A stretch of 64,000 bases of DNA from an uncultured Candidatus Binatia bacterium (lineage in GTDB: Bacteria; Desulfobacterota; Binatia; Bin18; CBDCRK01), in the NCBI GenBank assembly GCA_965220955.1, contig CBDCRK010000004.1:23277-87276 (forward strand), read 5' to 3'. Below are positions 44,572-64,000 of the stretch, one piece after another. Under the pieces are notes generated by a model, which saw only the letters and a program-made list of their open reading frames with translations, searched no databases and was not told where the DNA came from. The position numbers and the translations under genes are program-made. Position 1 is the first letter of the stretch, and every line of letters starts with the position of its first letter.

Positions 44572-44594
44572 AGGCCAATGGCTAACAAGGAGAT

Positions 44595-44623: not shown

Positions 44624-44735
44624 CTCCAAATCGACCGTCTCATTCCTGTCACTCGCCGCTCATCTCTGACGTTAGGTTCACATTACTAAAGGGTTCAAAG
44701 CTGTCCATAAGATCACCTCAGGTTCTGGAGCATTG

Positions 44736-48709: not shown

Positions 48710-50954
48710 AGCGGTTTGCGCTTGAGCTTATCAACCGCTATACCAATTATTCCCCAAGGGTTTATTAGACTCTTGCCAATCTCCCTTATAGTTTGTTCAC
48801 CTGAGTCGGTCTCAATCATCCAACAATTGATCATCAGAGAGTGAGGAGAAGACATGTCTAGACTTCGCCCAACTCTCGCCTATATAATAGTATAATCAAT
48901 CGGGCGGCGTACCGCTTCGGCGGGCGGCGTACCGCTTGTGGTGTGGTGTGGGAGGATGCCATGAAAAAATACGCCCGGACGGCGTACCGTGGGCGGCGTA
49001 CCGCTAGTGCTGAAAATATTCTTCCTGCGGACCTCGGCAGCGAAGCTGAGGCACGCTACTTAAACTACGCCCTAAGCGTTATCACCTCGCGGGCATTGCC
49101 TGACATACGTGACGGGCTTAAGCCAGTACAGCGCCGTCTACTCTTTGCCATGCATCAAAATCTACATCTGTCAGCCGAAGCCAAGCCGCGCAAGTCCGCA
49201 GCGGTAGTAGGGGAAGTCCTGGGGAAATACCATCCTCATGGTGATCAGGCTGCTTATGAGGCTTTGGTCCGCCTGGCTCAGCCCTTCTCTCTGCGTTATC
49301 CACTCATCCATGGAGAAGGCAACTTTGGTTCTATAGATGGGGATAGGGCTGCGGCCATGCGTTACACCGAGGCAAAGCTCACCCTTTTGGCCCAAGAGCT
49401 ATTTGGCGGCGGGCGGCGTACCGCTCTGCAAGAGATTACAGTCCCCTTCCGTCCTAATTACGATGCCACTCTCGAAGAGCCGGTGGTATTGCCTGCCGCT
49501 ATCCCCCAACTGCTTATAAACGGTTCAACAGGCATTGCCGTGGGCCTGTCCACCAACATTCCTCCCCATAACCTCTCTGAGGTGATTGACGGGCTTATAG
49601 CCCTGATTGACGATCCCGAGATCTCCATCCAGGGATTGCTCAAGTACATTAAGGGCCCTGATTTTCCTACTGGAGGAGAGATTCTCACAACCAAGCGAGA
49701 GCTTCGCCAGATTTATGAAGCCGGCCAGGGGACACTACGGCTCCGTGCCAAGTGGCAGATAGAATCACTGCCTCGGGGCAAACAGCAGATTATTATTACT
49801 TCTCTCCCCTACACGGTGAATAAAGCACAGCTGGTGGAAAAAATCGCCGAGTTGGTAGGAAACCGCAAACTTCCCCAGGTGGTAGACGTACGCGATGAAT
49901 CTACTGAAGAGGTACGCCTTACTCTAGAGCTCAAAGGAGACACCTCCGCTGAACTAGCCATGGCCTACCTCTTTCGCCATACTCCCCTGCAGATCTCGTT
50001 TCCCATTAACCTTACCTGCCTTGTGCCCACGGCAAACTCACTGGTAGGGCAGCCCGCACGGGTAACCCTAAAAGAAATGTGCCGCTACTTTCTTGACTTC
50101 CGCATGGAGGTGGTCAGCAAGCAGCTAGAGCACGAACTACAGGAATTAGAAAAACGCTTGCACATTCTTAAGGGGCTCGAACTCATCTCCGGCCGCCTGG
50201 ACCAGGTTATCCAGCTTATTCGCTCGGCTGCCTCGCGAAAAGAGGCACGGGAAAAACTGACGGGCGGCGTACCGCTTGCATCCGGGCCGGTACGCCGAAG
50301 CGGGCGTACCGCTTTCCACCCGGGCGGTGTACCGCTTGACGAGGTCCAAGCCGAGGCCATTCTGGAAACCCGCCTCTACCAACTTGCCCGTCTGGAGCTG
50401 GACAAGATCGAAAAAGAACAGGCAGACAAAGAGAAGCAGGCAAAAGAGCTGAGGAAACTTTTGGGGGACACCCAGAAGCGCTGGTGGCTGATTCGAGAGG
50501 AGTTGCTGGCACTCAAGCAGCACTATAGAGACAGACGCCGTACTAGCCTGACCGCTGGCGAAGAGCTGAGCTATGATCCCGAGGCATACATCGTCCACGA
50601 GGAGGCAACGGTGGTCTTAAGCCGCGACGGCTGGATCAAGCGGGTACGGGAGCTTAAGGATCCTACTAGTACCCGTTTGCGTGAGGGAGATGCCATTCGG
50701 GCGATTCTCTCTGGGACCACCCGTGACCGTCTGGCCCTGTTTACCAACTATGGTGGGCTCTATGTTATAAAAATATACGATGTGCCCGCTTCGACCGGCT
50801 ATGGCGAACCTATTCAGACCATCCTCCGCTTTCAGGACGGCGAACAAGTAGTAAGCGCCAAGCTTGTAAGCGAGCCACCCCAACAGGGGAACGGCAAAGT
50901 CAATGGTCAAGTGAACGGCACGGATCAAGAGAATCTTTCGGGCGGCGTACCGCT
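48672..50954 (+). repeat. Dispersed family of a 15-nt GC hairpin motif GGGCGGCGTACCGCT (about 10 same-strand copies)
   Basis: Exact copies at 48672, 48902, 48922, 48991, 49411, 50262 and 50940. Variants at 48977 (ggacggcgtaccgt), 50302 (gggcgtaccgct) and 50322 (gggcggtgtaccgct). A partial inverted copy is at 50287-50297. No copy was noticed elsewhere in the window. The core GCGG-CGUA-CCGC can form a 4-bp GC stem with a tetraloop. Confidence 0.9.
48859..48888 (+). promoter_or_regulatory. Possible promoter of the topoisomerase operon
   Basis: TAGACT (48859-48864), an 18-nt spacer, then TATAAT (48883-48888). A second TATAAT is at 48891-48896. Two tandem motif copies lie between this region and the GGGAGGA Shine-Dalgarno. 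Confidence 0.3.
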
Positions 50955-51468
50955 CTCTTCTCCGTCTGCGCCACTCGCAGAAGAGGCCACAGATTCGACA
51001 AACTCCCTGCAGAGTTACCTCCTGGCCACCACCAAAGGCCTGGGTTTTCGTTTTCAGCCAAATTTTACCGAGACCAATCGTAACGGCAGAAAGGTAGCCA
51101 GGGTGGCGGAAGGCGACGAGATCGTCTCTATTGAACCCATTACCAGCCCACTGGCGGTATGTGTCACTGCCCAGGGTCGGATAACAACCTTTCCCGTGAA
51201 CGAGGTGGCTGAGCTTTCCGGTCCAGGGCGGGGGGTAATCTTGATGCGTCTTGACCGGAACGACCGCCTGATTGGTGCTGTTACTACTACTCCGAGTGAG
51301 GGCATTACTGTGGTGGACACTGAGGGCAACGAATGTGAGGTGCCTTTGAGGAAGATTTCTCCAGGACAGCGGGCAAGCAAGGGACAGAGAGTCATAAAAC
51401 GCCTAACCCTCACGGGGGTGCGGAATAAGGTTGCGGAGGGAGGGATGAACAGTCATGACAACGCTTAA
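48961..51468 (+). CDS. Type IIA topoisomerase subunit A (GyrA/ParC family; ParC-like, since no canonical GyrA box was seen)
   Basis: [23 protein letters not shown], active-site [29 protein letters not shown]. The C-terminal domain begins [12 protein letters not shown], without a QRRGGKG-type box. Start taken at ATG 48961, after GGGAGGA. The ORF is open from 48943. Confidence 0.85.
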
Positions 51469-53380
51469 AAGTGAGGCAAATGGTTATACCGCCAAAGACA
51501 TCACCGTCCTTGAGGGCTTGGAACCTGTTCGTAAACGCCCGGGCATGTATATTGGCGGGGTAGACAGCCCTGGTCTTCACCACTTGGTGTGGGAGCTCCT
51601 AGATAACGCTGTAGACGAAGCCATCAACGGGTACGCAAGCCGCATTGAGGTCAACCTGCACAAAGATGGCTCCACCATTACCGTTACGGATAATGGCCGG
51701 GGGATTCCCGTTGACATGCACCCAAAGTTCAAAAAAACTGCTCTGGAGCTAATCCTTACTACGTTGCACGCTGGCGGCAAGTTTGCTGACCATCTCTACT
51801 CTCATGCTGGCGGGTTACACGGTGTGGGCGCATCGGTAGTCACGGCGCTTGCGGATAAATTGATTGCTCAAGTAAAGCGTGATGGATTTATCTGGGAACA
51901 GACCTTTTCTCGGGGAAAGACTACTTCACGCCTCAAGCAAATCGGCAAAGCACAGGATACGGGAACCACCATTACTTTTCACCCAGATCAGGACATTTTT
52001 CCTTCTATTACTTTCAAGCCCAGGCTGATTGCCGAACGACTAGAGGCAAAGTCATACCTGCATAAAGGGCTGAGGCTGACTTTCCGCAACGAGCAAACCG
52101 GAGAGGAGACTCGCTACTATCACCAGGACGGGCTTAAGGCCTACTTAGAAAAAGTTGTTAAGGAAAGAGAAAGAAAGCCAGTCATTGGCGAGGTTTTCTC
52201 TCTAGAACGCCGCGAAGAGCCACCGCTGGAGTGTGTACTGACCTGGACCGAAGCTACAGACGAAACCATGCTTACGTTTGTCAATGGAATTCCTACGCCA
52301 TTTGGAGGAACCCACGAAAGCGGGCTAAAGAGCGGGTTGGTCAAAGCAGTGCGCAACTACCTCAGCGTTCACGATCTTATCCCCAAAGGGCTCACTGTGA
52401 CCGCCGAAGACATCCGTGAGGGACTGGTTGCCATTCTCAGTCTCTATCTTACCCTCCCTCAGTTCCAGGGGCAGACCAAAGAAAAACTGGGCAACCCTGA
52501 GGTGACAGCCCAGATCGACGGGCTTATCCGCACCTCTCTGGAGAACTTTCTGTTGCACAACCGCTCGCTTGCCGATGCCATTGTTAACCGCATCATTCTT
52601 GCGGCCAAAGCCCGCACCGCCTCGCGAGCAGCAGCGGAAACGGTCAAAGGTAAAGGCTCTGTCTCCCACCGCCTTAACCTCCCTGGCAAGCTTGCCGACT
52701 GCACCTCAACCAATCCCGCAGTCAGCGAGCTGTTTATTGTTGAAGGGGACTCGGCCGGTGGTTCTGCCAAACAGGCACGCGACCGCGGATTTCAGGCGGT
52801 TTTGCCGCTGCGAGGCAAGGTGCTCAACACCGAGCAAGCCTCTCTTGCCAAGGTGCTCACCAACAAGGAACTCACCGACCTGGTTTCAGCCCTGGGGTGC
52901 GGGGCAGGCAAGAGCTTCTCACTGGAGAAACTCCGTTACCACAAAATCTGCCTGCTTATGGATGCCGACTCTGATGGCAACCACATCTGTACCCTGCTTC
53001 TTACTTTCTTCTACCGTCACCTTCCTGAGCTTATTCACCAGGGTCACCTCTACATTGCCCAGCCCCCGCTTTACAAGATCGAGGCAGGTAAAGAGACTTT
53101 CTGGGCACGCGACGATGGAGAAAAGGAGAGCATCCTGAGTAACCGCAACGGAAACCGAGAAAAGACTCAGGTACAGCGCTTCAAAGGCTTAGGGGAGATG
53201 AATCCACGGACACTCAAGGAAACAACCCTTGATCCCCAAAGTCGCTCGCTGCTGCGCGTGACCATTGATGACGCCGCCCGCACAGAGGCCAGCATTCAGA
53301 CCCTTATGGGCCGGGAGGTCCAGCCCCGTTTTGCCTTCATTATGGGGCGGGCACCCAAGGTCGAAGAGCTGGACGTGTAG
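51455..53380 (+). CDS. Type IIA topoisomerase subunit B (GyrB/ParE family)
   Basis: [24 protein letters not shown], the Toprim segment [31 protein letters not shown], and [10 protein letters not shown]. Overlaps the subunit A gene by 14 nt. Confidence 0.9.
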
Positions 53381-53388
53381 GATCTCAC

Positions 53389-53643
53389 ATGCAAAGCAAG
53401 GTATCGGTAAGAGGACAAACCGTTATCCCCTGGGAGATCCGCAAGACCCTGGGCATCACCCCCAACACAGTCCTTCACTGGCAGGTCCAGGACGGAGCCA
53501 TCCTGGTGTACCCAGTGCCGTCCGACCCCGTGAAGGCCTCTCTAGGTATCCTCAAGGGCAGGGGCACTTTCCAGGAGTTCCTTCGAGAACGGAATGAAGA
53601 GCGGGCCAGGGAACTTCGCCTCCCCTATAAAGCCCGTCGCTAG
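53389..53643 (+). CDS. AbrB/MazE/SpoVT-family antitoxin-like DNA-binding protein
   Basis: MQSKVSVRGQTVIPWEIRKTLGITPNTVLHWQVQDGAILVYP is a SpoVT-AbrB swapped-hairpin domain. It starts 9 nt after the subunit B stop. No cognate toxin ORF follows. Confidence 0.7.
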   Translation: MQSKVSVRGQTVIPWEIRKTLGITPNTVLHWQVQDGAILVYPVPSDPVKASLGILKGRGTFQEFLRERNEERARELRLPYKARR

Positions 53644-53706
53644 TCCTATCCTAAGGTAGCCGCCTTCCACAGTGACCTGAGCAAAAAAGGGCAAGGAGAG
53701 GAAGGG

Positions 53707-56700
53707 TTGGCTGACTTAAACGATAACCTCGCAAGACTCAAACCGGACGTCATTGTCCGGGGACCGATCTTCCCTGAGCCGGTTCAAGTGATTGTAGCGG
53801 TCCCGATGGGTGACTCCGTCAAGCTTGTTGGTAAGGGACTCAACACCGGTCAGGTCCACGAGCCAATCCTCAATGCTGAGCAACTGGCACAGTTAGAGGC
53901 TACCCCAGACAAGGAGCCGTTTGACGGCGACCCGAAAAAGTTCCGTATTGGGCTCGAGGCATTGCGCCTGGCTTTGGCCTATGAGTACGATCCCTATTTC
54001 TCGCTCTCTATTGCGCGGGTGGACCCTCTCCCTCATCAGCTTGAAGCGGTCTATGACTATTTTCTGAAGCTGCCCCGTATCCGCTTCCTACTTGCCGATG
54101 ACCCTGGTGCAGGCAAAACCATCATGGCTGGCCTGCTCTTGAAGGAACTTAAAATACGAGGGCTGGTTCAGAGGACGCTCATTGTCACACCCGCCAACCT
54201 TTCGTTCCAGTGGCAGCGGGAGATGAAAGACAGATTTCGAGAGAGCTTCGAGGTCATCCGCAGCGACATTCTGCGGGCAAACTATGGCTCCAACCCCTGG
54301 CAGGAAAAAAACCAGGTGATTACCTCAGTGTCCTGGGTCTCGCGCATTGAGGATGCCAGGGAAAGTCTCCTGCGCAGTCACTGGGACCTCATTATTGTGG
54401 ACGAGGCGCATAAAATGAGCGCCTATAGTGCGGATAAAAAGACCCTGACTTACCAACTGGGTGAAGCCCTTTCCACAATGACCGACCATTATCTGCTGAT
54501 GACGGCAACGCCCCACAAGGGCGACCCGAAGAATTTTTGTCTCTTTCTCGAACTCCTGGACCGCGATGTCTACGGTGACGTGAAGAGCCTCGAAGAGGCT
54601 ATGCGTCGCAACAATGCCCCCTTCTATCTACGCCGGACCAAAGAGGCCCTGGTCACGTTCCCCGACCCGGACACCGGTCAAATCAAGAAGATCTTTACCA
54701 ACCGCGATGTCCAGACCGTCGAGTTTCACATTGATGAGGATGAATGGGATTTCTATGATGCTCTGACCCGCTACGTTGAAGACCAATCCATCAAGGCGTC
54801 AGTGGATGATTCCGCACGTGGCCGGGCGCTGGCGTTTAACATGGCCATGCTACAACGCCGATTTGCCTCCAGCATCTATGCGGTGCGGCGTAGCCTGGAG
54901 CGCATGCGGGATAAGCGCCAGAAAATTCTCGACGATCCAGAAGCTTACCGGCAGGAGCAGATCACCAGGAGGCTCCCGGACGACTTTGACGAGCTTCCCG
55001 AAGAGGAACAGCAGGAAATCATTGAGTCTCTGGAGGGAATGGTTGCCTCGGTTGAACCCGCTGCCCTCAGGGAAGAAATACTCCAGCTTAGTGAGCTCAT
55101 CGACCAAGCTGGGGTTCTGGAGAAGCGCGAGGTTGAATCAAAGCTAGTGAGACTCAGGCAAGTCCTCACCGAGCAGGGCATCTTTCAGAACCCTAAGATG
55201 AAGCTCCTGCTCTTCACGGAGCATAAGGAGACTCTCGACTACCTGATTGGCAAGCTTCAGGAATGGGGACTGTCCGTTACCCGGATCCATGGCAGTATGA
55301 AGATCGGAGATCGGGATACCCCAGGTACTCGCATCTATGCTGAGCGGGAATTCCGAGAAGAATGCCAGGTCATGGTGGCTACCGAAGCGGCAGGCGAAGG
55401 CATCAACCTGCAATTCTGCTGGTTCATGATCAACTATGACATCCCGTGGAACCCGGTGCGCCTGGAACAACGGATGGGACGCATCCACCGTTACGGCCAG
55501 GAGCACGACTGCCTGATCCTGAACTTTGTTGCCATCAACACACGCGAGGGACGTGTCCTGCAAAGACTCCTGGAACGGCTGAGGGAAATCCGCAAGGAGC
55601 TGGGAACCGATCAGGTTTTTGACGTGGTGGGTGAGGTCTTCCCGGCTAATCTGCTGGATAAGATGTTCCGGGACCTGTACGCCAATAAGGTGGATGTACC
55701 AGATATAGAAGCCCGTATTGTCCAGGATATCGACGCTCGGAGGTTTCGGGCAATCACCGAGTCAACCCTGGAAGGACTGGCCAAACGTGAACTCAACCTC
55801 TCCGTGCTTATTGGTAGGTCTGCTGAGGCCCGTGAGCGTTGCCTCGTCCCTGAGGTGATCGAGAACTTCTTTGCCCAGGCTGCCCCTCTGGCCGGAATCC
55901 ACCCCAGGGAGACCAGGGCAAACACGCATGTCTACCGAATCGGCCGGGTTCCCCGGACCTTATGGCCCATTGGCGAGCGCCTGGAACCGCGCTTTGGCAA
56001 GCTAGGCCGTGAATACCGCCAGATCGTCTTTGACAAGGCATTGTTGTTGAAAGACGCCACATCTGAATGGGTGACACCAGGCCACCCCCTATTCGAGGTG
56101 GTACGCGAAGATGTGATTGAGCGTGTTCGCAATGATCTACAACGGGGCAGCCTTTTCTACGACCTTCACCACAAAGAGCCTTATCGCTTGGATGTTTTCA
56201 CCACTTCAATCAAGGACGGTCGTGGGAACCTCCTGCACCGGAAGCTCTTTGTTGTCCAGACCGACCTGGACGGCTCCATGTCGATCAAGCAACCGACCCT
56301 TTTCCTCGATCTTGCGCTTGCACCCCAAGGCACGCCAGTCCCAGAAGAAGCTAGCCTCCCTGACCGGCATGTTGCTGAACAAACCTTGATCGAAAAGGCA
56401 CTCAACTCTTTCTTGGCAGACGTAGCTGCTGAACGAGAGCGAGAGACAGCAATGATTGCCGAGCACATCGAGATCAGTCTCAATGAGCTGATCCACCGCC
56501 AGAACCTCAGGCTTGCAGATCTGCTGGAACAACAGCAGAAAGGCGACACATCACCCCTACTTGCCGCCAATATGAAGCAGATTGAAGACCGGCTCGATGA
56601 GCTCAATGGTCGTCTGGAACGCAGGCGGGTAGAACTCCAGCAGGAACAGCAGTGCACCATTGGCAACATTCAGCACATCAGCCGGGCCTGGGTACTGCCG

Positions 56701-57132
56701 CACCCAGAACGCCAGTCACCTGGTATCGCCCCGATGGTGAGGGACAATGAGATTGAGCGGATCGCGGTCGATACTGTGACGGCATATGAAGAAGCACGAG
56801 GCTGGCAGGTTGAGAGTGTGGAGAAGGACAATCGTGGCTTTGACCTCATCTCACGCAAACCCCACCCAGAAGATCCAGAGACTGCCATCGAGGTACGGTT
56901 TATCGAGGTCAAGGGCCGGGCAACCGTCGGCGTGGTTGCGCTGACAACTAACGAGTATAAAACCGCCGAGCGGCTCAAGAAGGATTACTGGCTCTACGTG
57001 GTCTTCAACTGTACCTCGGCGCCTGAGGTCCACTCAATCCAGGACCCGACACGTCTAGGTTGGAAGCCGCTGGTGAAGATCGAGCATTATCATGTAGGGG
57101 CAGAAGAAATTCTCTCAGCAGAGGAGAATTGA
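53707..57132 (+). CDS. SNF2-family helicase with a C-terminal DUF3883 (restriction-endonuclease-like) domain
   Basis: 1141 aa, TTG start. LADDPGAGKT (motif I), IIVDEAHKM (DEAH), helicase C motifs ...ATEAAGEGINLQ... and ...NPVRLEQRMGRIHRYGQ. The C-terminus has RGFDLIS...IEVKGR...LTTNEYKTAERL...YWLYVV, typical of DUF3883. Confidence 0.85.
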   Translation: MADLNDNLARLKPDVIVRGPIFPEPVQVIVAVPMGDSVKLVGKGLNTGQVHEPILNAEQLAQLEATPDKEPFDGDPKKFRIGLEALRLALAYEYDPYFSLSIARVDPLPHQLEAVYDYFLKLPRIRFLLADDPGAGKTIMAGLLLKELKIRGLVQRTLIVTPANLSFQWQREMKDRFRESFEVIRSDILRANYGSNPWQEKNQVITSVSWVSRIEDARESLLRSHWDLIIVDEAHKMSAYSADKKTLTYQLGEALSTMTDHYLLMTATPHKGDPKNFCLFLELLDRDVYGDVKSLEEAMRRNNAPFYLRRTKEALVTFPDPDTGQIKKIFTNRDVQTVEFHIDEDEWDFYDALTRYVEDQSIKASVDDSARGRALAFNMAMLQRRFASSIYAVRRSLERMRDKRQKILDDPEAYRQEQITRRLPDDFDELPEEEQQEIIESLEGMVASVEPAALREEILQLSELIDQAGVLEKREVESKLVRLRQVLTEQGIFQNPKMKLLLFTEHKETLDYLIGKLQEWGLSVTRIHGSMKIGDRDTPGTRIYAEREFREECQVMVATEAAGEGINLQFCWFMINYDIPWNPVRLEQRMGRIHRYGQEHDCLILNFVAINTREGRVLQRLLERLREIRKELGTDQVFDVVGEVFPANLLDKMFRDLYANKVDVPDIEARIVQDIDARRFRAITESTLEGLAKRELNLSVLIGRSAEARERCLVPEVIENFFAQAAPLAGIHPRETRANTHVYRIGRVPRTLWPIGERLEPRFGKLGREYRQIVFDKALLLKDATSEWVTPGHPLFEVVREDVIERVRNDLQRGSLFYDLHHKEPYRLDVFTTSIKDGRGNLLHRKLFVVQTDLDGSMSIKQPTLFLDLALAPQGTPVPEEASLPDRHVAEQTLIEKALNSFLADVAAERERETAMIAEHIEISLNELIHRQNLRLADLLEQQQKGDTSPLLAANMKQIEDRLDELNGRLERRRVELQQEQQCTIGNIQHISRAWVLPHPERQSPGIAPMVRDNEIERIAVDTVTAYEEARGWQVESVEKDNRGFDLISRKPHPEDPETAIEVRFIEVKGRATVGVVALTTNEYKTAERLKKDYWLYVVFNCTSAPEVHSIQDPTRLGWKPLVKIEHYHVGAEEILSAEEN

Positions 57133-57134
57133 CA

Positions 57135-58600
57135 ATGACTTTCTACCACTGGCAACCGATTGAGGATCTTCCGTACTCTTGGCAGGAATTGGTGTCCACC
57201 GACTTGGCAAGCTTGGCATCTATATGGAAGGATCAATCGAAGAGACTTCAACAGTCCGATGCCCTGAAACAGTTTAACGAGCGCCTTTGCCGTGAGTGGG
57301 CTATTGAAACCGGTGTTATTGAAAATCTCTACTCCATTGATCGTGGAATTACACAAGTGCTAATCGAGAAAGGTATTGAGGCTAGCCTGATTCCGCATGG
57401 AACAACAGATAAACCAGTGGAGTTAGTTATTCCTATTCTCAAAGATCAAGAGGAAGCTCTAGAGGGGCTTTTCGACTTTGTCAAACAGCAAAGAGCCTTA
57501 TCAACGTCTTATATAAAGCAACTCCATCAAGTTTTTACCCGTCACCAAGAAACGGTCCCGGCCATCAATGGTATAGGACGCCCAACGGAAGTGCCTCTTC
57601 TCCGTGGAGAATGGAAAAAATGGCCTAATAATCCGAATCGCCCTGACGGAACAATTCATGAATACTGCCCCCCCGAGCACGTAGCGGCTGGAGATGGACC
57701 GGTTAATAGAGATGCATGAACGACATATAGCATGAGGGTATTTCGCCCGAAGTGCAAGCGGCTTGGCTACATCATCGGTTTACGCAAATCCACCCCTTTC
57801 AAGATGGAAACGGCCGCGTTGCTCGTGCCCTTGCTTCGTTGATCTTCCTGCGTGCAGGCTGGTTTCCGCTTGTCATCAACCGGGACATTCGAGAGGAATA
57901 TATCCGTGCTTTAGAACACGCCGATCAAGGCGAGTTGCAGTCTTTGATTGGACTTTTCACCAGAATTCAGAAAAAAGCATTCGTAACTGCATTTAGCATT
58001 TCGGAAGATGTGCTTAGGGGTCGGGAACCGCTCCAGCAAATGATTAGTGCCGCAGCGGAGCGTCTACGGGCTAGGGCAGAGATGAAAATTCAAGAGCGGC
58101 GAAAGGTGTTCAGTTTCTCACAACGCCTGGAGGAAATGGCTCGAACACGCCTACAAGAGATAGCAGACATTTTGTCAAGTGAATTGAGACAAGTGGATAT
58201 CCAATACCTCGTGACTGCTGACAGAAGCGACTCTGACACGGACCATTGGTTCAAAAAACAAATCGTAGATATAGCGAGGGATCTGGATTATTATGCCGAC
58301 ACACGAAGCTATCGTACCTGGGTGCGGTTAAAGATCCGCGAGGAACGGCAAGCTGAGTTGGTGATCACGTTTCATTCTCTTGGAGTCGAGTTTCTTGGGA
58401 TTATGGCAGCCTCCTCGTTCATGGAATACCGGGATAGGAGTGAAGACGGCGAAGTAACGATAGAGGGACCTTATCCTGTGTGCAAGGATATTTTTCAGTT
58501 TTCCTATAACGAGCAGGAGCAAGAAATAGTTGAGCGTTTTCAGCAATGGTTGAATGATGCGCTCCTAGTAGGACTTGACCAGTGGAGAAGGCAGCTTTGA
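57135..58600 (+). pseudogene. Fic-domain protein with two frame breaks (near 57690 and 57733)
   Basis: The Fic motif HPFQDGNGRVARA is in the 57752-58600 frame. The N-terminal part (MTFYHWQPIEDL...) is in another frame. The bridging segment EMDRLIEMHERHIA is readable in the third frame. Confidence 0.7.
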
Positions 58601-61600
58601 TTGATACAAACAATCACCCCAAACGCCTTATCGAGGTGGACCTTCCTATCAAGCGCATCTCTGCACATGCACGGCGAGAGAAGAGCATTCGCCACGGGCA
58701 CATTTCGACGCTACATATTTGGTGGGCTAGGCGGCCCCTAGCGGCATGTCGGGCGGTGATTTGTGCAGCCCTTTGGCCCGATCCTGCTAATGAACACTGC
58801 CCACAGGCGTTTCGGGAGAAGGCGGCAGAACTCGTCACGACGTTTGCCATCAAGGCTGCCTCGACGGGGAAGTTGGCGGACAGTTGTTCCCAGGAGTCAA
58901 TTGCCCGCTGGCTCACTCTGGCCAAGCCTGAAAATCACCTTGATCTAAACAACCCCTCACACCTCAACGTCTTGCGTTTCGCTCTGCTCGATTTCATCGC
59001 CGATTTCGCCAATTGGGATAACTCGACCAAAAAGGAATATCTGGAGGCCAGCCGGGCCTTAACCCAGGCTGCGCATGAGGCGTTGGGTGGCGATCCTGGT
59101 ACTAAACCTTTGGTGGTGGACCCCTTTGCTGGTGGTGGAGCTATCCCGCTAGAAGCATTGCGGGTGGGGGCAGATGCCTTTGCCAGTGACCTCAACCCGG
59201 TAGCTGTACTGCTCAACAAGGTGGTGCTGGAATATATCCCCAAGTATGGCCAGCGCCTTGCTGACGAGGTCCGCAAATGGGGCGAGTGGATCAAGAAGGA
59301 GGCCGAGAAGGAGCTGGCCAAGTTCTATCCTAGAGACCCAGATGGGGCGACGCCGATTGCCTATCTGTGGGCGCGGACAATTACCTGTGAGGGGCCAGGA
59401 TGTGGTGCTGAAGTACCGCTAATGCGCTCCTTCTGGCTTGCAAAGAAAGGAAACCGCTCTGTAGCTTTGCGCATAATTTCCAGACCGAAAGCCAAGCAAG
59501 TAGAGTTCGAGATTATCGAGAATGCCCAGATACGAGATATCAGCGAAGGAACGGTTCGACGCGGGAGCGCAACCTGCCCGGCGTGTGGCTTCACCACGCC
59601 AGTTGGCTCAGTACGACAGCAGTTGAGGAAGCGTCGAGGCGGCGCTGTTGATGCCAGACTGTTCTGCGTGGTTATGACGCGGCCAGGTGCCCAGGGGAGA
59701 TTCTACCGTCTACCAAACGAGAAAGACTGGCAGGCAGCGTATGCCGCAGCCAAGGAACTGGAACGATGCGAACGGGTATACAAGGGTAAACCAAGCATGG
59801 TGCCGAATGAAAGATATCCGGATGAAACCGGTTCCGGTGCCTTGAGTTCGTCTGTCGTTTATGGTCCGCGAACTTGGGGAGACCTCTTCATCCCTCGTCA
59901 GGCACTGGCCCTGACGATGCTGGTGAAGCTGGTGCGAATAGCGGGAGAGAAGATGACACAGGAGGGTGAAACGGGCCTAGCACTAGCGGTGCAGACATGT
60001 TTGGCAATGACCGTGGACAGGGCGGCTGAACACGGTTCATCTCTCTGCCGCTGGAACGCGAATGGCGAGAAGCTCCAGGCTACGTTTGGTCGGCAAGCCT
60101 TGCCGATGACCTGGGATGTCTGTGAAACTAATCCCTTCGGAAGCTCTGTCGGTTCCTTAAGCTCCTTGCTTGAGCTAGTTCAGATAACAATCAAGACGGC
60201 ATCATATTTACCTTCTGAGGGCACCACAGCAGCTGCCTCCGCGACCATTCACTCACTACCCAACGATTTCGCACAGGGGTTTTTCACCGATCCACCCTAC
60301 TACGACGCTATAGCATATGGCGACTTGTCTGATTTCTTTTTTGTATGGTTGAAGCGCACTATAGGAGATCTTTATCCGTCATTATTTTCAAGCGAATTGG
60401 TGGACAAGACAGATGAGATTGTTCATCTGTCTCAGCGATTTAGAGGACCCTACTCTCACAAGACGAAAGAATATTTTGAGAAAAACATGCAGTTAGCCAT
60501 GGAGGAAGGGCGACGTGTGTTGGCACCCGACGGTGTGGGCATTGTGGTCTTCGCGCACAAATCCACTGGTGGTTGGGAGGCTATGCTACAAGCAATGGTC
60601 GATGCTGGCTGGGTGATGACCGGCTCCTGGCCCATCGACACGGAGATGGGAACGCGGATGAACGCTATGGGAGCTGCAACCCTTGCCTCTTCTATTCATC
60701 TCGTCTGTCGCCCCCGTGAAAATGCCGACGGCTCGCTACGAACAGACGATATCGGCGACTGGCGTGACGTTCTTGCGGAGCTGCCGAAGCGTATCCACGA
60801 ATGGATGCCGCGCTTGGCCGCTGAAGGTGTAGTAGGAGCAGACGCCATTTTTGCCTGCCTCGGTCCTGCTCTGGAAATCTTTTCTCGTCACTCACGTGTG
60901 GAGAAGGCCAGTGGTGAGCGGGTTACCCTCAAGGAATATCTGGAGCTTGTCTGGGCTGCTGTCGCCAGGGAGGCCCTAAACATGATCTTCGAGGGCGCTG
61001 ATGCAACTGGCTTTGAGGAGGATGCTCGCCTGACAGCCATGTGGCTATGGACTTTATCTACTGGCACCAGTGGAAATGGCAGTGGGGACAGTGAAGCCGA
61101 AAGTGAAGAAGACGAAGGGGCTTCTATCAAGAAAGCCAAGACGAGCGGCTTTGTCCTGGAGTATGACGCAGCCCGTAAGATCGCCCAGGGTCTCGGTGCA
61201 CACCTGGAGCACTTGGCCAGCTTGGTAGAAGTCAAAGGAGACAAAGCCCGGCTTCTACTCGTGTCGGAACGTACTCGCGCTCTTTTCGGCAAAGATGAGG
61301 GTAAGGCTCCAGCAAAACGCAAGAAGAAAGCTACCCAACTCACCCTTTTTGGTGCCCTGTCTGCCGGCAGGCAGGCCCTTGGCGAGGTCGAAGAGGAAGG
61401 AGATGGTTGGGGGGAAAAGAATGCTCCACAACTGGGGAATACAGTCCTCGACCGCATCCATCAAAGTATGATTCTCTTTGCCGCGGGTCGTGGTGAAGCG
61501 CTCAAACGGTTTCTAGTGGAAGACGGTGTCGGACGTGACCAGCGTTTCTGGCGCTTGGCTCAGGCTCTTTCGGCGCTGTACCCTGCGGGCACGGACGAGA

Positions 61601-61650
61601 AGCGTTGGGTGGATGGCGTGCTTGCTCGGAAAAAAGGACTGGGGTTTTGA
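58582..61650 (+). CDS. DUF1156-domain N6-adenine DNA methyltransferase with a Zn-ribbon (COG1743-like)
   Basis: N-terminal LIEVDLPIKRISAHARREKSIRHGHISTLHIWWARRPLAACRAVI (DUF1156). Cys pairs CEGPGC...CPACG. Catalytic FFTDPPYYD (DPPY). Confidence 0.85.
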   Translation: MEKAALIDTNNHPKRLIEVDLPIKRISAHARREKSIRHGHISTLHIWWARRPLAACRAVICAALWPDPANEHCPQAFREKAAELVTTFAIKAASTGKLADSCSQESIARWLTLAKPENHLDLNNPSHLNVLRFALLDFIADFANWDNSTKKEYLEASRALTQAAHEALGGDPGTKPLVVDPFAGGGAIPLEALRVGADAFASDLNPVAVLLNKVVLEYIPKYGQRLADEVRKWGEWIKKEAEKELAKFYPRDPDGATPIAYLWARTITCEGPGCGAEVPLMRSFWLAKKGNRSVALRIISRPKAKQVEFEIIENAQIRDISEGTVRRGSATCPACGFTTPVGSVRQQLRKRRGGAVDARLFCVVMTRPGAQGRFYRLPNEKDWQAAYAAAKELERCERVYKGKPSMVPNERYPDETGSGALSSSVVYGPRTWGDLFIPRQALALTMLVKLVRIAGEKMTQEGETGLALAVQTCLAMTVDRAAEHGSSLCRWNANGEKLQATFGRQALPMTWDVCETNPFGSSVGSLSSLLELVQITIKTASYLPSEGTTAAASATIHSLPNDFAQGFFTDPPYYDAIAYGDLSDFFFVWLKRTIGDLYPSLFSSELVDKTDEIVHLSQRFRGPYSHKTKEYFEKNMQLAMEEGRRVLAPDGVGIVVFAHKSTGGWEAMLQAMVDAGWVMTGSWPIDTEMGTRMNAMGAATLASSIHLVCRPRENADGSLRTDDIGDWRDVLAELPKRIHEWMPRLAAEGVVGADAIFACLGPALEIFSRHSRVEKASGERVTLKEYLELVWAAVAREALNMIFEGADATGFEEDARLTAMWLWTLSTGTSGNGSGDSEAESEEDEGASIKKAKTSGFVLEYDAARKIAQGLGAHLEHLASLVEVKGDKARLLLVSERTRALFGKDEGKAPAKRKKKATQLTLFGALSAGRQALGEVEEEGDGWGEKNAPQLGNTVLDRIHQSMILFAAGRGEALKRFLVEDGVGRDQRFWRLAQALSALYPAGTDEKRWVDGVLARKKGLGF

Positions 61651-61666
61651 CAAACGGAGGAATCTT

Positions 61667-61918
61667 ATGCCCACAGTTACTCTGAATCTACCTGAAGAAA
61701 TCTTTTCCGCCTTGCGTCGATCCCCAGAGGAGTTTGTGCGCGAGCTTCGCCTTGCTGCCGCCATCTACTGGTACGAACGGGGCGAGGTTTCGCAGGAGAA
61801 GGCAGCCCATGTTGCGGGTCTGGATCGTACCGACTTTCTGTTAGACCTGGCACGCGAGCGTGCTGATGCTTTCGTTGTAGATCTTGACGACCTGAAGCGG
61901 GAGATCGACCGTGGCTGA
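61667..61918 (+). CDS. UPF0175-family antitoxin
   Basis: 83 aa. VTLNLPEEIFSALRRSPEEFVRELRLAAAIYWYERGEVSQEKAAHVAGLDRTDFLLDL is typical of UPF0175. GGAGG site upstream. Confidence 0.75.
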   Translation: MPTVTLNLPEEIFSALRRSPEEFVRELRLAAAIYWYERGEVSQEKAAHVAGLDRTDFLLDLARERADAFVVDLDDLKREIDRG

Positions 61919-61967
61919 ACATCGGGCCGTCAATGCCTCGCCCCTGATTTTTCTGTCTGGAGGATGA
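61911..61967 (+). pseudogene. 18-codon remnant of the cognate DUF3368 (PIN-like) toxin
   Basis: The GTG overlaps the antitoxin stop (GTGGCTGA). VAEHRAVNASPLIFLSGG-stop matches the N-terminal D/N-[AT]-S-P-L-I motif of DUF3368 proteins and then ends. Confidence 0.5.
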
Positions 61968-61973
61968 TAACCA

Positions 61974-62225
61974 ATGGATGAGAAGAAACTTTTGGAACGG
62001 ATCACAGTGAGCCCGAAGATTTTCGGCGGTAAGCCAATCATTCGTGGGCGCCGTCTGGCCGTTGAACATGTTCTCGGGATGCTAGCAGCCGGTGACATGA
62101 CCGAAACCATTCTTGAGGGTTATCCTTGGTTAGAACCAGAAGATATTCAGGCATGCCTTGTCTACGCCCGCAGGCTGGTCGGTCACGAGCGGGTTGAGCC
62201 ACTCCTTATCGAGACCGATACATGA
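61974..62225 (+). CDS. DUF433-family antitoxin
   Basis: ITVSPKIFGGKPIIRGRRLAVEHVLGMLAAGDMTETILEGYPWLEPEDIQACLVYA is the canonical DUF433 pattern. Confidence 0.8.
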   Translation: MDEKKLLERITVSPKIFGGKPIIRGRRLAVEHVLGMLAAGDMTETILEGYPWLEPEDIQACLVYARRLVGHERVEPLLIETDT

Positions 62226-62575
62226 AGCTTCTTCTGGATACATGCGTGTGGGGAGGAGCCCGCAAAGAACTGGAGGCTGCTAGCCACGATGTCTTGTGGG
62301 CTGGAGAGTGGACTGAAGACCCAGGTGATGAAGAAATCCTGGCACGCGCTTATAACGAGGGCCGTGTCCTGGTGACTCTGGACAAAGATTTTGGTGAACT
62401 AGCTATTGTTCGTGGACGACCTCATTGTGGGATCTTGCGTCTTGTCAACCTAGCAGCCAAGCAGCAGGGACCTGTCTGTTTACAGGTGCTTACTCTTCAC
62501 GGAGAGGAACTCCAATCAGGTGCAATCATCACGGCGGAGCCAGGTAGGCTCAGGATTCGTCCACCCAGCACATAG
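62222..62575 (+). CDS. DUF5615 / Mut7-C-like PIN-fold toxin, partner of DUF433
   Basis: MKLLLDTCVW...DEEILARAYNEGRVLVTLDKDFGEL. 4-nt overlap with the DUF433 gene. Confidence 0.7.
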   Translation: MKLLLDTCVWGGARKELEAASHDVLWAGEWTEDPGDEEILARAYNEGRVLVTLDKDFGELAIVRGRPHCGILRLVNLAAKQQGPVCLQVLTLHGEELQSGAIITAEPGRLRIRPPST

Positions 62576-62587
62576 GAGGGCTGAAAA

Positions 62588-64000
62588 ATGGCGATCAAGC
62601 CCTGGTACAAAGTAGCAACACCTCGTGAGGATCTGCGGGAAGGCAAACCCCTCGATGCCTCCGAGTTCGCGGTTCACCTTGGCCAGGTTCGTGATAATCG
62701 GGCTCCTGATGTTTACCAGAACCCGGAGCAATTTTTTGAACGTACCTACCTGACACAGAACCTAACTACACTGGCCGCTGAGGCAGTCCGCCGTCTCTCC
62801 GGGGAGAAGACCGAGACCTCCGCCGTCTTCAACATGGCAACCCAGTTTGGCGGCGGAAAGACCCATGCCCTGACCTTACTCTATCATTTGGCAAAGCACG
62901 GCCCCGAGGCGGAGCGTTGGTCTGGTATTCAGAGGATCTTGGATCAATCCGGTATGTCCACCGTACCTCGCGCAGTAACTACGGTCTTTGTAGGGACCGA
63001 GTTTGACTCTCTCGTTGGTCGCGGTGGGAACGACGGGACACCTCTGCGTAAGACGCCCTGGGGAGAGATCGCCTACCAGCTTAGCGGTAAGGAAGGGCTT
63101 GAAGTCCTTGCCGAACACGAAAAACAGATGACGGCCCCTGCGGGCGATGTCATCCGTAAGTTCTTACCCAAAGATAGGCCCTGCCTCATCCTCATGGACG
63201 AGCTGATGAACTACGTTAGCCGCAGCCGTAAGAGCGGGATGGCCACCCAGCTATATAGCTTTCTCCAGAACCTTTCGGAGGAAGCCCGCGGGCATGACAA
63301 CATGGTCCTCGCCGTTTCCATCCCGGCCTCTGAACTGGAGATGAGCGCCGAAGATCAGTCAGACTACGAACGTTTTAAAAAACTCCTCAACCGCCTGGGT
63401 AAAGCAGTGATTATGGCTGCCGAGACCGAAACGGCCGAGATTATTCGTCGCCGGTTGTTTGAGTGGGAACCGCGAGTCGTCACTCAGGATGGAAGGGTTT
63501 TGCTGAGCCGGGAGGCGCAACAGACCTGTAACGAATACGCGGACTGGGTTGTTGACCACCGCCAGCAGATTCCGAGCTGGTTCCCCATCGACAACGCGCG
63601 GGAGGCGTTTTATGGCACGTATCCCTTTCACCCAATGGTGCTCTCAGTGTTCGAGAGAAAGTGGCAGGCCCTACCCCGGTTTCAGAGGACCCGTGGCATC
63701 TTGAGACTCCTGGCTCTTTGGGTTTCCAGGGCCTACCAGGAGGGCTTTAAGGGGGCACACCGTGACCCGTTGATTGGGCTGGGTACAGCCCCGCTCGATG
63801 ACTCCATGTTCCGGGCAGCTCTGTTCGAGCAGTTGGGAGAGCCCCGGCTTGAGGGTGCGGTCACCACCGATATTTGCGGCAAGAAGGATTCTCATGCTCT
63901 CCGTCTGGATAAAGAGGCGGTGGACACAATCAAAAAAGCGCGGTTGCATCGCAAGGAGGCAACAACAATCTTTTTCGAGTCAAACGGAGGGCAGACCCGC
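62588..64000 (+). CDS. DUF499-family ATPase (COG1483-like), 3' partial. Not in the supplied ORF track because it runs off the window.
   Basis: Hand translation from ATG 62588 is open to base 64000: MAIKPWYKVATPREDLREGKPLDASEFAVHLGQVRDNRAP...FNMATQFGGGKTHALTLLYHL (Walker A)...CLILMDELMNY (Walker B-like)...FHPMVLSVFERKWQALPRFQRTRGILRLL. This is the characteristic DUF499 N-terminus. Confidence 0.85.
   Translation, partial: MAIKPWYKVATPREDLREGKPLDASEFAVHLGQVRDNRAPDVYQNPEQFFERTYLTQNLTTLAAEAVRRLSGEKTETSAVFNMATQFGGGKTHALTLLYHLAKHGPEAERWSGIQRILDQSGMSTVPRAVTTVFVGTEFDSLVGRGGNDGTPLRKTPWGEIAYQLSGKEGLEVLAEHEKQMTAPAGDVIRKFLPKDRPCLILMDELMNYVSRSRKSGMATQLYSFLQNLSEEARGHDNMVLAVSIPASELEMSAEDQSDYERFKKLLNRLGKAVIMAAETETAEIIRRRLFEWEPRVVTQDGRVLLSREAQQTCNEYADWVVDHRQQIPSWFPIDNAREAFYGTYPFHPMVLSVFERKWQALPRFQRTRGILRLLALWVSRAYQEGFKGAHRDPLIGLGTAPLDDSMFRAALFEQLGEPRLEGAVTTDICGKKDSHALRLDKEAVDTIKKARLHRKEATTIFFESNGGQTR

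What the first reader, a model, noticed from the sequence alone, without database searches (positions are those of the whole stretch)
53389..64000. SNF2-DUF3883 helicase / DUF1156 adenine methylase / DUF499 ATPase defence cassette interleaved with Fic and toxin-antitoxin genes
Three large same-strand genes form the core:
- a 1141-aa SNF2 helicase ending in a DUF3883 nuclease-like domain
- a 1022-aa DUF1156 methylase with a Zn-ribbon and DPPY motif
- a DUF499 P-loop ATPase that continues beyond the window

To my recollection, this COG0553 / COG1743 / COG1483 combination was flagged as a predicted restriction-modification-like defence system in comparative-genomic surveys of defence islands. I believe related components occur in the recently named methylation-associated defence system (MADS). 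I cannot verify gene-by-gene correspondence from memory, and the mechanism is essentially uncharacterised.

What is unusual here is that every junction between core genes is occupied by small addiction or toxin-type genes:
- an AbrB antitoxin-like gene before the helicase
- a Fic gene between helicase and methylase, whose 3' end overlaps the methylase start by 19 nt
- UPF0175 (plus a toxin stub) and DUF433-DUF5615 between methylase and ATPase

The whole unit begins 9 nt after the topoisomerase subunit B stop.
Basis: partly seen in the sequence, partly recalled or inferred. Interest (0 to 1): 0.75.

Follow-up and report, generated by a model that had tools for sequence, protein, structure and literature searches.

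The report
Hma defence operon with embedded toxin genes
This is an ordinary example of the already named Hma (DUF499-centred, BREX-related type 1) anti-phage operon, and carrying toxin-antitoxin and Fic genes between its three core genes is the usual state of such operons, not an oddity.

Summary
The three large genes match the PADLOC models HmaA (E 1.9e-186), HmaB (7.9e-133) and HmaC (7.2e-89). That makes this the Hma system of Payne 2021, renamed "Type-1 DUF499-centred BREX-related system" in 2026. It is not MADS: the only hit is a 16-bit match to mad2.

Interleaved genes are the norm for Hma. Published counts are 62.7% and 66.5% of operons. In my 60 related loci, 48 (80%) have at least 200 bp of extra DNA, enough for a gene, in at least one junction.

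Three corrections:
- The Fic gene is broken in the window by two extra bases (57690, 57730). A 99.92%-identical contig carries it intact at 487 aa.
- Fic belongs to a free-standing family. None of seven homologue contexts lies in Hma.
- The AbrB/MazE-like gene does not recur upstream of hmaA (0 of 50 loci).

One small new point: DUF433(-DUF5615) PIN-type modules recur at the hmaB-hmaC junction. Eight of 10 hits fall there, in 8.5% of the non-hma DNA.

On the near-identical contig, HmaC is frameshifted near its 3' end, beyond the window.

Verdict: new member of a known kind, low interest.

The parts
53389..53643 (+). AbrB/MazE-like (SpoVT-AbrB fold) small gene with no toxin partner. It is an orphan antitoxin-like DNA binder and not a conserved Hma part.
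   Evidence: PF04014 E 6.4e-7. No PADLOC hit. No homologue in 80 Hma loci. None of the 50 ORFs directly upstream of hmaA in other loci hits PF04014.
53707..57132 (+). hmaA: SNF2 translocase (DDPGAGKT 131, DEAH 232, QRMGRIHRYGQ 588) fused to a C-terminal PD-(D/E)xK NOV_C nuclease (D1046, E1067-x-K1069, E1083). This is the effector.
   Evidence: PADLOC HmaA E 1.9e-186 over residues 8-1101. Pfam SNF2-rel_dom, Helicase_C and NOV_C. The catalytic D/ExK/E pattern corresponds to D1084/E1104/K1106/E1121 of the tested Halomonas HmaA (PMC11232893).
57135..58600 (+). Embedded Fic gene (class II-like AMP-transferase fold, HPFQDGNGRVAR, inhibitory-helix pattern TGVIEN). In the window it is disrupted by two single extra bases and reads in three frames. 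It is intact (487 aa) in contig L001.
   Evidence: The structure model matches FICD, BT_2513 and the Shewanella Fic SO_4266 (3EQX/3ZEC). PADLOC PDC-S04 5.9e-23, SoFic 4.9e-22. G+C is 0.48-0.49 here against about 0.55 around it.
57690..57737 (+). 48-bp polymorphic patch inside Fic. It holds 10 of the 12 differences from the near-identical contig, including the two frame-breaking extra bases.
   Evidence: A third assembly (L088) ends at about 57687.
58582..61650 (+). hmaB: DUF1156-type N6-adenine DNA methyltransferase (motif I DPFAGGG 180, motif IV DPPY 570) with an inserted Cys4 zinc-ribbon module.
   Evidence: PADLOC HmaB E 7.9e-133. Pfam DUF1156 4.5e-23. The motifs and Cys residues are invariant in 21 homologues.
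61667..61918 (+). UPF0175 (COG2886) antitoxin, now without a functional toxin.
   Evidence: PF03683 3.4e-23. PADLOC PDC-S70 6.7e-8.
61911..61967 (+). 18-codon remnant of the cognate PIN-like toxin (I take it to be DUF3368-type; no Pfam scan was run on it), cut off just before the next module.
   Evidence: Translation VAEHRAVNASPLIFLSGG*. It matches the N-terminus MRVANASPLIHLARV of the full-length toxin that follows UPF0175 between hmaB and hmaC in L086.
61974..62225 (+). DUF433 (COG2442) antitoxin of the second TA module.
   Evidence: PF04255 2.4e-22. It recurs at the hmaB-hmaC junction in 7 loci, plus L014 directly after hmaB.
62222..62575 (+). DUF5615 (PIN/Mut7-C-like) toxin. It overlaps DUF433 by 4 nt and ends 12 nt before hmaC.
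   Evidence: PF18480 1.5e-16. The same pair lies directly upstream of hmaC in L026, L042, L047 and L082.
62588..64000 (+). hmaC: DUF499 ORC/Cdc6-type AAA+ ATPase (GGGKT 88, LMDE 202). The first 471 codons lie in the window and the gene continues beyond it.
   Evidence: PADLOC HmaC 7.2e-89 for the window part and 2.3e-126 for the 823-aa ORF in L001. Pfam DUF499.

Best explanation
The region is one co-directional, tightly packed Hma operon (also called a Type-1 DUF499-centred BREX-related system). Independent toxin modules have been inserted into its two inter-gene junctions.

Likely working of the core (inferred, nothing assayed for this locus):
- HmaC (AAA+ ATPase) loads HmaB on DNA.
- HmaB marks host DNA by N6-adenine methylation of a short motif.
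- When unmodified motifs are met on incoming DNA, the HmaBC complex licenses HmaA.
- HmaA translocates on DNA with its SNF2 motor and nicks or cuts with its C-terminal PD-(D/E)xK domain.

The embedded genes are not parts of this machine. Fic, UPF0175 with a dead PIN toxin, and DUF433-DUF5615 are self-contained toxin or TA modules that landed in a known insertion hotspot. They are probably co-transcribed with the operon. They act, if at all, as separate back-up abortive-infection or addiction modules. They turn over quickly: one toxin is reduced to 18 codons, and Fic is frameshifted in this strain.
For: Identity of the core:
- The PADLOC Hma models are by far the best hits. HmaA scores 1.9e-186 against 1.7e-29 for the Gao_RL PLD-helicase. 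HmaB scores 7.9e-133 against 2.7e-43. HmaC scores 7.2e-89 (2.3e-126 full length) against 6.1e-18.
- All catalytic motifs are present.

Conservation:
- A-B-C order and strand are kept in nearly all of 80 loci from many phyla.
- HmaA is present in 60 of 64 loci and HmaC in 51 of 53 where the flank allows.

Embedding is typical:
- 48 of 60 loci have at least 200 bp in a junction. Median gaps are 908 and 608 nt. The window has 1449 and 937 nt.
- The embedded content elsewhere is ABC ATPases, GmrSD, Schlafen, OLD-TOPRIM, TIR, RES and DarT. Small TA genes also occur: DUF433, DUF5615, DUF2283/DUF4258, HepT/MNT, PIN, HicB and MqsA.
- Literature gives 62.7% embedded, with 7 of 9 embedded candidates giving phage defence on their own, and 66.5% with insertions.

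Fic is autonomous:
- In seven contexts of 58-67% identical homologues, none lies in Hma.
- Its G+C is lower than that of its neighbours.

Turnover:
- The toxin stub compares with an intact pair in L086.
- The Fic frameshifts.

Mechanism:
- Halomonas HmaA alone protects against T4 and needs its Mn-dependent nickase domain.
- In MANTIS, the DUF499 ATPase loads a homologous MTase for hemimethylation, and the complex triggers the helicase-nuclease.
- A Type-1 model was proposed in PMC12839542.
Against: - No methylation, restriction or toxicity was measured for this locus.
- In Halomonas, overexpressing HmaB did not change T4 sensitivity, and HmaA worked without HmaB or HmaC. The restriction-modification-like logic of Type-1 systems is therefore still unproven.
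- Type-1 systems lack the MtsB co-factor that MANTIS needs for methylation.
- HmaC on the near-identical contig is frameshifted before its C-terminal domain, so the system may be impaired in this lineage.
- Co-transcription is inferred only from spacing. The promoter and terminator scans were no better than shuffled sequence.
Confidence: 0.82

Rival explanations
1. The DUF433-DUF5615 pair (and similar RNase toxins) is a functional accessory of HmaC rather than a passenger. In this reading it is a back-up suicide RNase placed directly upstream of hmaC, playing the role that the N-terminal HEPN fusion plays in more than half of Type-1 systems.
For: - DUF433 hits are concentrated at the hmaB-hmaC junction. 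Eight of 10 hits fall in 8.5% of the non-hma DNA (binomial p about 1e-7), and none falls in the A-B junction.
- The pair sits no more than 31 nt from the hmaC start in L026, L042, L047, L082 and the window.
- It occurs in two HmaB subclades, at about 44% and 50-65% identity to the query.
- HEPN-DUF499 fusions occur in 1370 of 2446 taxa.
Against: - Only 7 of 64 junctions carry it, so most Hma systems do without it.
- DUF433-PIN pairs are very abundant, mobile TA modules in Cyanobacteria and Chloroflexi (PMC2701414).
- The same junction also hosts unrelated modules.
- The counts are not corrected for shared ancestry of cassettes.
- PADLOC has no model for the pair.
Confidence: 0.12
2. The cassette is decaying in this lineage and is no longer a working defence system. 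The packed toxin genes and their remnants are debris.
For: - Fic is broken by two frameshifts in the window.
- The PIN toxin is reduced to 18 codons.
- AbrB is an orphan.
- HmaC in L001 has a frameshift that separates its last ~115 residues (linker and C-terminal domain) from the rest.
Against: - hmaA and hmaB are full length with every catalytic motif.
- The window part of hmaC is open.
- The two contigs differ at only 2 positions outside the Fic patch in 15.4 kb.
- Each frameshift is seen in one assembly only and may be a consensus error. L001 is a 7x contig, and a third assembly breaks at the Fic patch.
- Halomonas HmaA works alone.
Confidence: 0.15
3. The cassette is a MADS, DISARM or BREX type-3 system rather than Hma.
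For: - HmaA also hits DrmD (1.2e-131) and BrxHI/BrxHII (2.5e-106 and 5.9e-89) through the shared SNF2 core.
- HmaB weakly hits PglXI (6.7e-6) and mad2 (7.6e-4).
- HmaC weakly hits BrxC (0.0087).
Against: - The Hma models score far higher over the full length.
- The Pfam and PADLOC hits of the called genes include no PglZ, BrxA/BrxF, DrmA/DrmB (DUF1998), PLD DrmC or further mad genes. This covers the cassette and 1 kb beyond hmaC on L001, and upstream back to 36 kb. The EthD ORF and the small ORFs between 43.9 and 46.8 kb have only precomputed Pfam annotation on L087 and no PADLOC scan.
Confidence: 0.02

Closest known systems
Hma system (HmaA/HmaB/HmaC; Payne et al. 2021, PMC8565338), also called Type-1 DUF499-centred BREX-related system (PMC12839542)
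   Same: - The same three proteins in the same order and on the same strand.
- The SNF2 helicase carries the C-terminal active PD-(D/E)xK nuclease (present in 79% of Type-1 systems).
- A DUF1156 N6-MTase with a nested zinc-ribbon/TRD insert.
- A DUF499 AAA+ ATPase without a HEPN fusion.
- Junctions occupied by embedded genes, as in most members.
   Different: - Only the cargo differs: a 487-aa Fic, a UPF0175 antitoxin with a dead toxin, and a DUF433-DUF5615 pair.
- The most common cargo elsewhere is ABC-ATPase modules (Septu, HEC-01 to 04) or GmrSD.
- Fic is frameshifted in the window, and hmaC is frameshifted on the sister contig.
MANTIS / Gao_RL (Type-2 BR system; bioRxiv 10.64898/2026.09.23.753747)
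   Same: - A DUF499 AAA+ ATPase, an N6-adenine MTase related to HmaB (PADLOC's Gao_RL model is named DUF1156_MTase) and an SF2 helicase-nuclease.
- It is the only relative whose mechanism has been reconstituted: ATPase-loaded hemimethylation of asymmetric 6-bp sites, and restriction triggered at unmodified sites.
   Different: - No MtsB (DUF3870) gene here.
- The nuclease here is a C-terminal PD-(D/E)xK domain, not an N-terminal HKD/PLD domain.
- The Gao_RL PADLOC models score far below the Hma models.
Hma-embedded candidates and PDC candidates ('guilt by embedding', Payne et al. 2024, bioRxiv 10.1101/2024.01.29.577857)
   Same: - The same phenomenon: autonomous toxin or defence genes nested between hma genes.
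- The Fic gene hits PDC-S04 and SoFic, and UPF0175 hits PDC-S70.
   Different: - DUF433-DUF5615 has no PADLOC model.
- None of the cargo here is one of the nine tested HEC systems.
PIN-COG2442 (DUF433) and PIN-COG2886 (UPF0175) type II toxin-antitoxin families (Makarova et al. 2009, PMC2701414)
   Same: - Antitoxin-first two-gene modules with a 4-nt overlap.
- These families are most abundant in Cyanobacteria and Chloroflexi.
   Different: - Here they are nested inside a defence operon.
- The UPF0175 module has lost its toxin.

Membership tests
Hma / Type-1 DUF499-centred BREX-related system | SNF2-family helicase (HmaA), in most members with a C-terminal NOV_C PD-(D/E)xK nuclease | tested here: met
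   PADLOC HmaA 1.9e-186 over residues 8-1101. Pfam NOV_C 1.3e-20. D1046, E1067-x-K1069 and E1083 are present.
Hma / Type-1 DUF499-centred BREX-related system | DUF1156-type N6-adenine methyltransferase (HmaB) | tested here: met
   PADLOC HmaB 7.9e-133. PF06634 4.5e-23. DPFAGGG and DPPY motifs present.
Hma / Type-1 DUF499-centred BREX-related system | DUF499 AAA+ ATPase (HmaC) | tested here: met
   PADLOC HmaC 7.2e-89 for the window part and 2.3e-126 for L001. Walker A GGGKT and Walker B LMDE are present. On L001 the last ~115 residues (linker and C-terminal domain) are in another frame.
Hma / Type-1 DUF499-centred BREX-related system | Three genes co-located in one orientation, with at most a few embedded genes between them | tested here: met
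   Order A-B-C on the + strand, with 1 embedded gene in the first junction and 3 in the second. The same order holds in 80 related loci.
Hma / Type-1 DUF499-centred BREX-related system | Anti-phage activity and DNA methylation | not testable with these tools
   Needs cloning with phage challenge, and methylome sequencing.
MANTIS / Gao_RL (Type-2 BR) | [quoted passage not shown] | tested here: not met
   No ORF in the cassette hits DUF3870 or PLD in Pfam. The PADLOC PLD_Helicase hit covers only the helicase C-terminal lobe, at 1.7e-29.
MADS (methylation-associated defence system) | The mad gene set (mad1 to mad8 models in PADLOC) | tested here: not met
   The only hit is HmaB to mad2 at E 7.6e-4 and 16 bits, over the SAM-binding region. 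No mad model is among the 4 HmaC families, or among the 25 of 55 HmaA families shown.
BREX type 3 | PglZ phosphatase plus BrxA/BrxF alongside BrxHII, PglXI and BrxC | tested here: not met
   The Pfam and PADLOC hits of the called genes on L001/L087 (about 10 kb upstream of hmaA to 1 kb beyond hmaC) include no PglZ or BrxA/BrxF. A TPR gene follows hmaC.
DISARM | DrmA helicase, DrmB (DUF1998) and DrmC (PLD) | tested here: not met
   Only the SNF2 core resembles DrmD. No DUF1998 or PLD gene is present.
Class II Fic AMP-transferase | HPFx(D/E)GNGRxxR active-site motif and an N-terminal inhibitory (S/T)xxxE(G/N) helix | tested here: met
   HPFQDGNGRVAR at residue 219 and TGVIEN at 59. The fold matches FICD, BT_2513 and the Shewanella Fic SO_4266 (3EQX/3ZEC). 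The TGVIEN segment has low model confidence (pLDDT below 50 for residues 62-92).
Class II Fic AMP-transferase | Uninterrupted reading frame in this window | tested here: not met
   Extra bases at 57690 and 57730 split the gene into three frames. It is intact in L001.
Type II TA, PIN-like toxin with DUF433 antitoxin | Adjacent antitoxin-toxin genes of the two families, translationally coupled | tested here: met
   PF04255 2.4e-22 and PF18480 1.5e-16, with a 4-nt overlap at 62222-62225. Toxicity and neutralisation were not tested.

The most novel reading that the evidence does not exclude
DUF433-DUF5615 (PIN-like RNase) modules may be a position-specific, recurrent accessory of the hmaB-hmaC junction. 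They may act as a detachable equivalent of the HEPN domain that is fused to the N-terminus of DUF499 in many Type-1 systems. In this reading, HmaC controls a back-up RNase when restriction fails. A second point is also open: the 48-bp hypervariable patch in Fic may mark a site of strain-level diversification rather than an error.
Probability: 0.12. Interest if true: 0.45.

Novelty: new member of a known kind. Interest (0 to 1): 0.25.

Why it matters
It adds little that is new. The locus is one more Hma operon, and nesting of toxin genes inside Hma is published and has already been used to discover defence systems.

Its modest value is as a clear snapshot of cargo turnover at the hotspot:
- an intact TA pair sitting next to the 18-codon stump of an earlier toxin;
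- a free-living Fic gene captured between hmaA and hmaB, alive in one strain and broken in another.

The enrichment of DUF433-type modules at the hmaB-hmaC junction is a small testable lead. The question is whether some cargo is tied to HmaC.

Tried and rejected
- **MADS, DISARM and BREX-3 membership.** Rejected on PADLOC scores and missing signature genes.
- **Diversity-generating retroelement as the cause of the Fic patch.** Rejected. The differences are transitions of both purines and pyrimidines, not adenine-specific, and the window holds no second copy to act as donor or template.
- **Programmed frameshifting in Fic.** Rejected as implausible. It would need two +1 shifts 40 nt apart, and the sister contig is in frame.
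- **Mobile-element borders around the cassette or its cargo.** No meaningful direct or inverted repeats in 53000-64000, and no tRNA genes in the window.
- **Promoter and terminator scan.** Counts were no higher than in shuffled sequence, so I gave it no weight.
- **AbrB as a conserved Hma regulator.** Rejected.
- **Fic as an Hma-specific component.** Rejected: 0 of 7 contexts lie in Hma.
- **Metagenome scan for Fic relatives.** It gave only 4 loci and added nothing.
- **Retrieving the window's own 90-kb contig, or its 5.5-Mb relative, downstream of 64000.** This failed. The downstream part therefore rests on the 99.92%-identical contig L001.
- **Supplementary tables of the Hma-embedding and BREX papers.** They are held only in truncated form and show no DUF433, DUF5615 or UPF0175 entries. 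I cannot say whether these families were already listed there.

Full report
**1. What is in the sequence**

From 53389 to the window end, all real genes lie on the + strand and are tightly packed:

| Gene | Coordinates | Spacing to the previous gene |
|---|---|---|
| AbrB/MazE-like | 53389-53643 | 8 nt after the ParE/GyrB-like stop at 53380 |
| SNF2 helicase (1141 aa) | 53707-57132 | 63-nt gap |
| Fic | starts 57135, ends 58600 | 2-nt gap |
| DUF1156 methylase (1022 aa) | 58582-61650 | overlaps Fic by 19 nt |
| UPF0175 | 61667-61918 | 16-nt gap |
| 18-codon ORF | 61911-61967 | overlaps the UPF0175 end |
| DUF433 | 61974-62225 | 6-nt gap |
| DUF5615 | 62222-62575 | 4-nt overlap |
| DUF499 ATPase | 62588 onward, off the window | 12-nt gap |

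The expected motifs can be read directly:
- **Helicase:** DDPGAGKT at 131, DEAH at 232 and QRMGRIHRYGQ at 588, plus a PD-(D/E)xK set D1046, E1067-x-K1069 and E1083.
- **Methylase:** DPFAGGG at 180, DPPY at 570 and four cysteines (269, 274, 332, 335). The cysteines are invariant in 21 homologues.
- **ATPase:** GGGKT at 88 and LMDE at 202.

**2. Identity of the core**

Against PADLOC-DB the three large proteins hit HmaA (1.9e-186, residues 8-1101), HmaB (7.9e-133) and HmaC (7.2e-89 for the 471 residues in the window). Every alternative scores far worse. These are the SNF2 cores of DrmD and BrxHII, the Gao_RL set (PLD_Helicase 1.7e-29, DUF1156_MTase 2.7e-43, DUF499 6.1e-18), PglXI, BrxC and mad2 (7.6e-4, 16 bits).

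The history of the name:
- Hma was named by Payne et al. 2021 as a helicase-methylase-ATPase operon, found 1,638 times in 26 phyla.
- A 2026 survey renames it the Type-1 DUF499-centred BREX-related system (2,446 taxa). It traces earlier sightings to 2013 and 2020.

The suggested link to MADS is not supported.

**3. The rest of the cassette**

The window's own 90-kb contig could not be retrieved. A 26-kb metagenome contig (L001/L087) is 99.92% identical over window 48580-64000. On it hmaC is an 823-aa ORF, followed after about 600 nt by a TPR gene. There is no fourth hma-like gene, no DUF3870/MtsB, no PglZ, no kinase and no extra nuclease.

Homologous HmaC proteins are 935-1001 aa. Their last ~115 residues align to L001 in the +1 frame, at 16504-16842. 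This points to a frameshift between 16472 and 16504 that detaches the C-terminal domain. It lies outside the window and is seen in one low-coverage assembly only.

**4. Fic is broken in the window**

The window and L001 differ at only 12 positions in 15.4 kb. Ten of these lie in 57690-57737. They are eight transitions plus two extra bases in the window, at 57690 and 57730.

As a result the window's Fic reads in three frames:
- 57135-57689
- 57691-57729
- 57731-58600

In L001 it is an uninterrupted 487-aa protein with a full Fic domain. With the two bases set aside, the window allele reads EMDRLIEMHERHIHEGISPEV. This fits the family consensus at least as well as the L001 allele. The patch is therefore a real allelic difference in the most variable part of the protein. 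A third assembly ends exactly at the patch, which suggests a population polymorphism. I cannot tell without reads whether the two extra bases are real or a consensus error.

**5. What the Fic gene is**

- It carries HPFQDGNGRVAR and an N-terminal TGVIEN pattern of the (S/T)xxxE(G/N) inhibitory type.
- A model (mean pLDDT 76) matches FICD/HYPE, BT_2513 and the Shewanella Fic protein over the first ~290 residues.
- A confident C-terminal alpha/beta domain (358-487) stays unassigned.
- The family is about 488 aa long and 57-79% identical across Nitrospirota, Chloroflexota, Acidobacteriota, Cyanobacteria and others.
- In seven genomic contexts examined, none lies inside Hma. Most are single genes tucked between housekeeping genes. 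One sits among transposases, and one sits in a TA/TIR/Wadjet island.
- Its G+C (0.48-0.49) is below the local 0.55.

Fic is thus an autonomous module captured here, not an Hma component.

**6. Are occupied junctions unusual?**

No. The literature reports embedded genes in 931 of 1,485 Hma systems (62.7%). Seven of nine tested embedded candidates defend on their own. A second study reports insertions in 66.5% of systems and calls the operon an insertion hotspot.

I checked this independently on 80 genome loci carrying HmaB relatives:
- The A-B-C order is kept.
- HmaA lies upstream of hmaB in 60 of 64 loci with enough flank. HmaC lies downstream in 51 of 53.
- Of 60 loci with both junctions, 48 have at least 200 bp in one junction and 35 in both.
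- Median gaps are 908 and 608 nt, against 1449 and 937 nt here.
- Larger cargo is dominated by ABC ATPases (17 of 101 ORFs). DprA-like, DUF4276, GmrSD, Schlafen, OLD-TOPRIM, ThsB-TIR, RES and DarT also occur.
- Small cargo includes DUF433 (6), DUF5615 (4), DUF2283/DUF4258, HepT/MNT, PIN, HicB and MqsA.
- Fic-motif genes of other subfamilies sit between hmaA and hmaB in L066 and L069.

**7. The hmaB-hmaC junction**

L086 carries an intact UPF0175 gene plus a PIN-like toxin directly upstream of hmaC. The toxin's N-terminus (MRVANASPLIHLARV) matches the window's 18-codon ORF (VAEHRAVNASPLIFLSGG*). The window therefore holds the stump of an earlier toxin, cut off where the DUF433-DUF5615 pair begins.

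DUF433 homologues are strikingly placed:
- Eight of ten hits in the 80 loci fall in B-C junctions. These make up 8.5% of the non-hma DNA (binomial p about 1e-7).
- A ninth hit follows hmaB at a contig end.
- None lies in the A-B junction.
- The complete pair lies no more than 31 nt from hmaC in four loci.
- This holds in two HmaB subclades.

The test does not correct for shared ancestry. DUF433-PIN pairs are abundant mobile TA modules. I treat this as a lead, not a finding.

**8. AbrB**

No homologue occurs in the 80 loci. Among the 50 ORFs lying directly upstream of hmaA in other loci, none hits the MazE/AbrB Pfam family, and no family recurs among them. It is an orphan antitoxin-like gene, possibly a local regulator, and not part of Hma.

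**9. How it probably works**

Shown elsewhere:
- Halomonas HmaA alone protects E. coli from T4. [quoted passage not shown]
- In the Type-2 relative MANTIS, the DUF499 ATPase (with MtsB) loads the methylase for hemimethylation of asymmetric 6-bp sites. The complex on unmodified sites then triggers the helicase-nuclease.

Inferred here:
- HmaC loads HmaB, HmaB marks self DNA, and HmaA restricts unmarked DNA.
- The cargo genes act separately, as abortive-infection or addiction modules.

Caveats:
- Type-1 systems have no MtsB.
- HmaB overexpression did not alter T4 sensitivity in Halomonas.
- Nothing was measured for this locus.

**10. Surroundings**

Upstream lie three more defence-type genes:
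- a GmrSD_N/DUF262 protein (40199-42082, resembling HEC-05/BrxU);
- a DUF5677 protein (42655-43893);
- an Mrr type IV restriction enzyme (44733-45614).

They are separated from Hma by EthD, an IspH-UbiA fusion and the ParC/ParE-like topoisomerase pair. This is a loose defence neighbourhood interrupted by housekeeping genes.

**11. Verdict**

The feature flagged as unusual is the norm for this system. I rate it a new member of a known kind, of low interest.

Noticed in passing
window 57690-57737: A 48-bp patch in Fic holds 10 of the 12 differences from a 99.92%-identical contig: 8 transitions and 2 extra bases. A third assembly ends at its edge. It codes for the most variable stretch of the Fic family.
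   Followed up: partly
L001 16472-16504 (beyond the window end): hmaC on the near-identical contig is frameshifted. Its last ~115 residues (linker and C-terminal domain), which are fused in homologues of 935-1001 aa, are in the +1 frame.
   Followed up: partly
window 40199-45614: Three further defence-type genes lie upstream. They are a GmrSD_N/DUF262 protein (HEC-05/BrxU-like, also PDC-M55C), a DUF5677 protein and an Mrr type IV restriction enzyme.
   Followed up: partly
window 39042-40055: A TPR plus SAM-methyltransferase protein hits the PADLOC mad2 model at 3.4e-14. This is probably only the shared methyltransferase fold.
   Followed up: no
window 48943-53380: A topoisomerase pair lies in A-then-B order with a 14-nt overlap. 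The A subunit has a weak C-terminal propeller signal, which suggests ParC/ParE. The Hma block starts 9 nt after its stop, so read-through transcription is possible.
   Followed up: no
proteins P0142, P0179, P0182, P0207 (HmaB homologues): Some HmaB homologues carry an additional domain: NADAR (PF08719) or DUF559/Vsr-like (PF04480). Where it sits in the protein was not checked.
   Followed up: no
L001 8556-10019 (Fic, residues 358-487): The ~488-aa Fic family is 57-79% identical across distant phyla. It has a confidently modelled C-terminal alpha/beta domain that was left unassigned after a whole-chain PDB fold search dominated by Fic-domain hits.
   Followed up: partly
L034, L061, L019, L086: Several related Hma loci from long-read MAGs are shredded by many frameshifts. 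This is probably sequencing error, and it warns against reading single frameshifts as pseudogenes.
   Followed up: no
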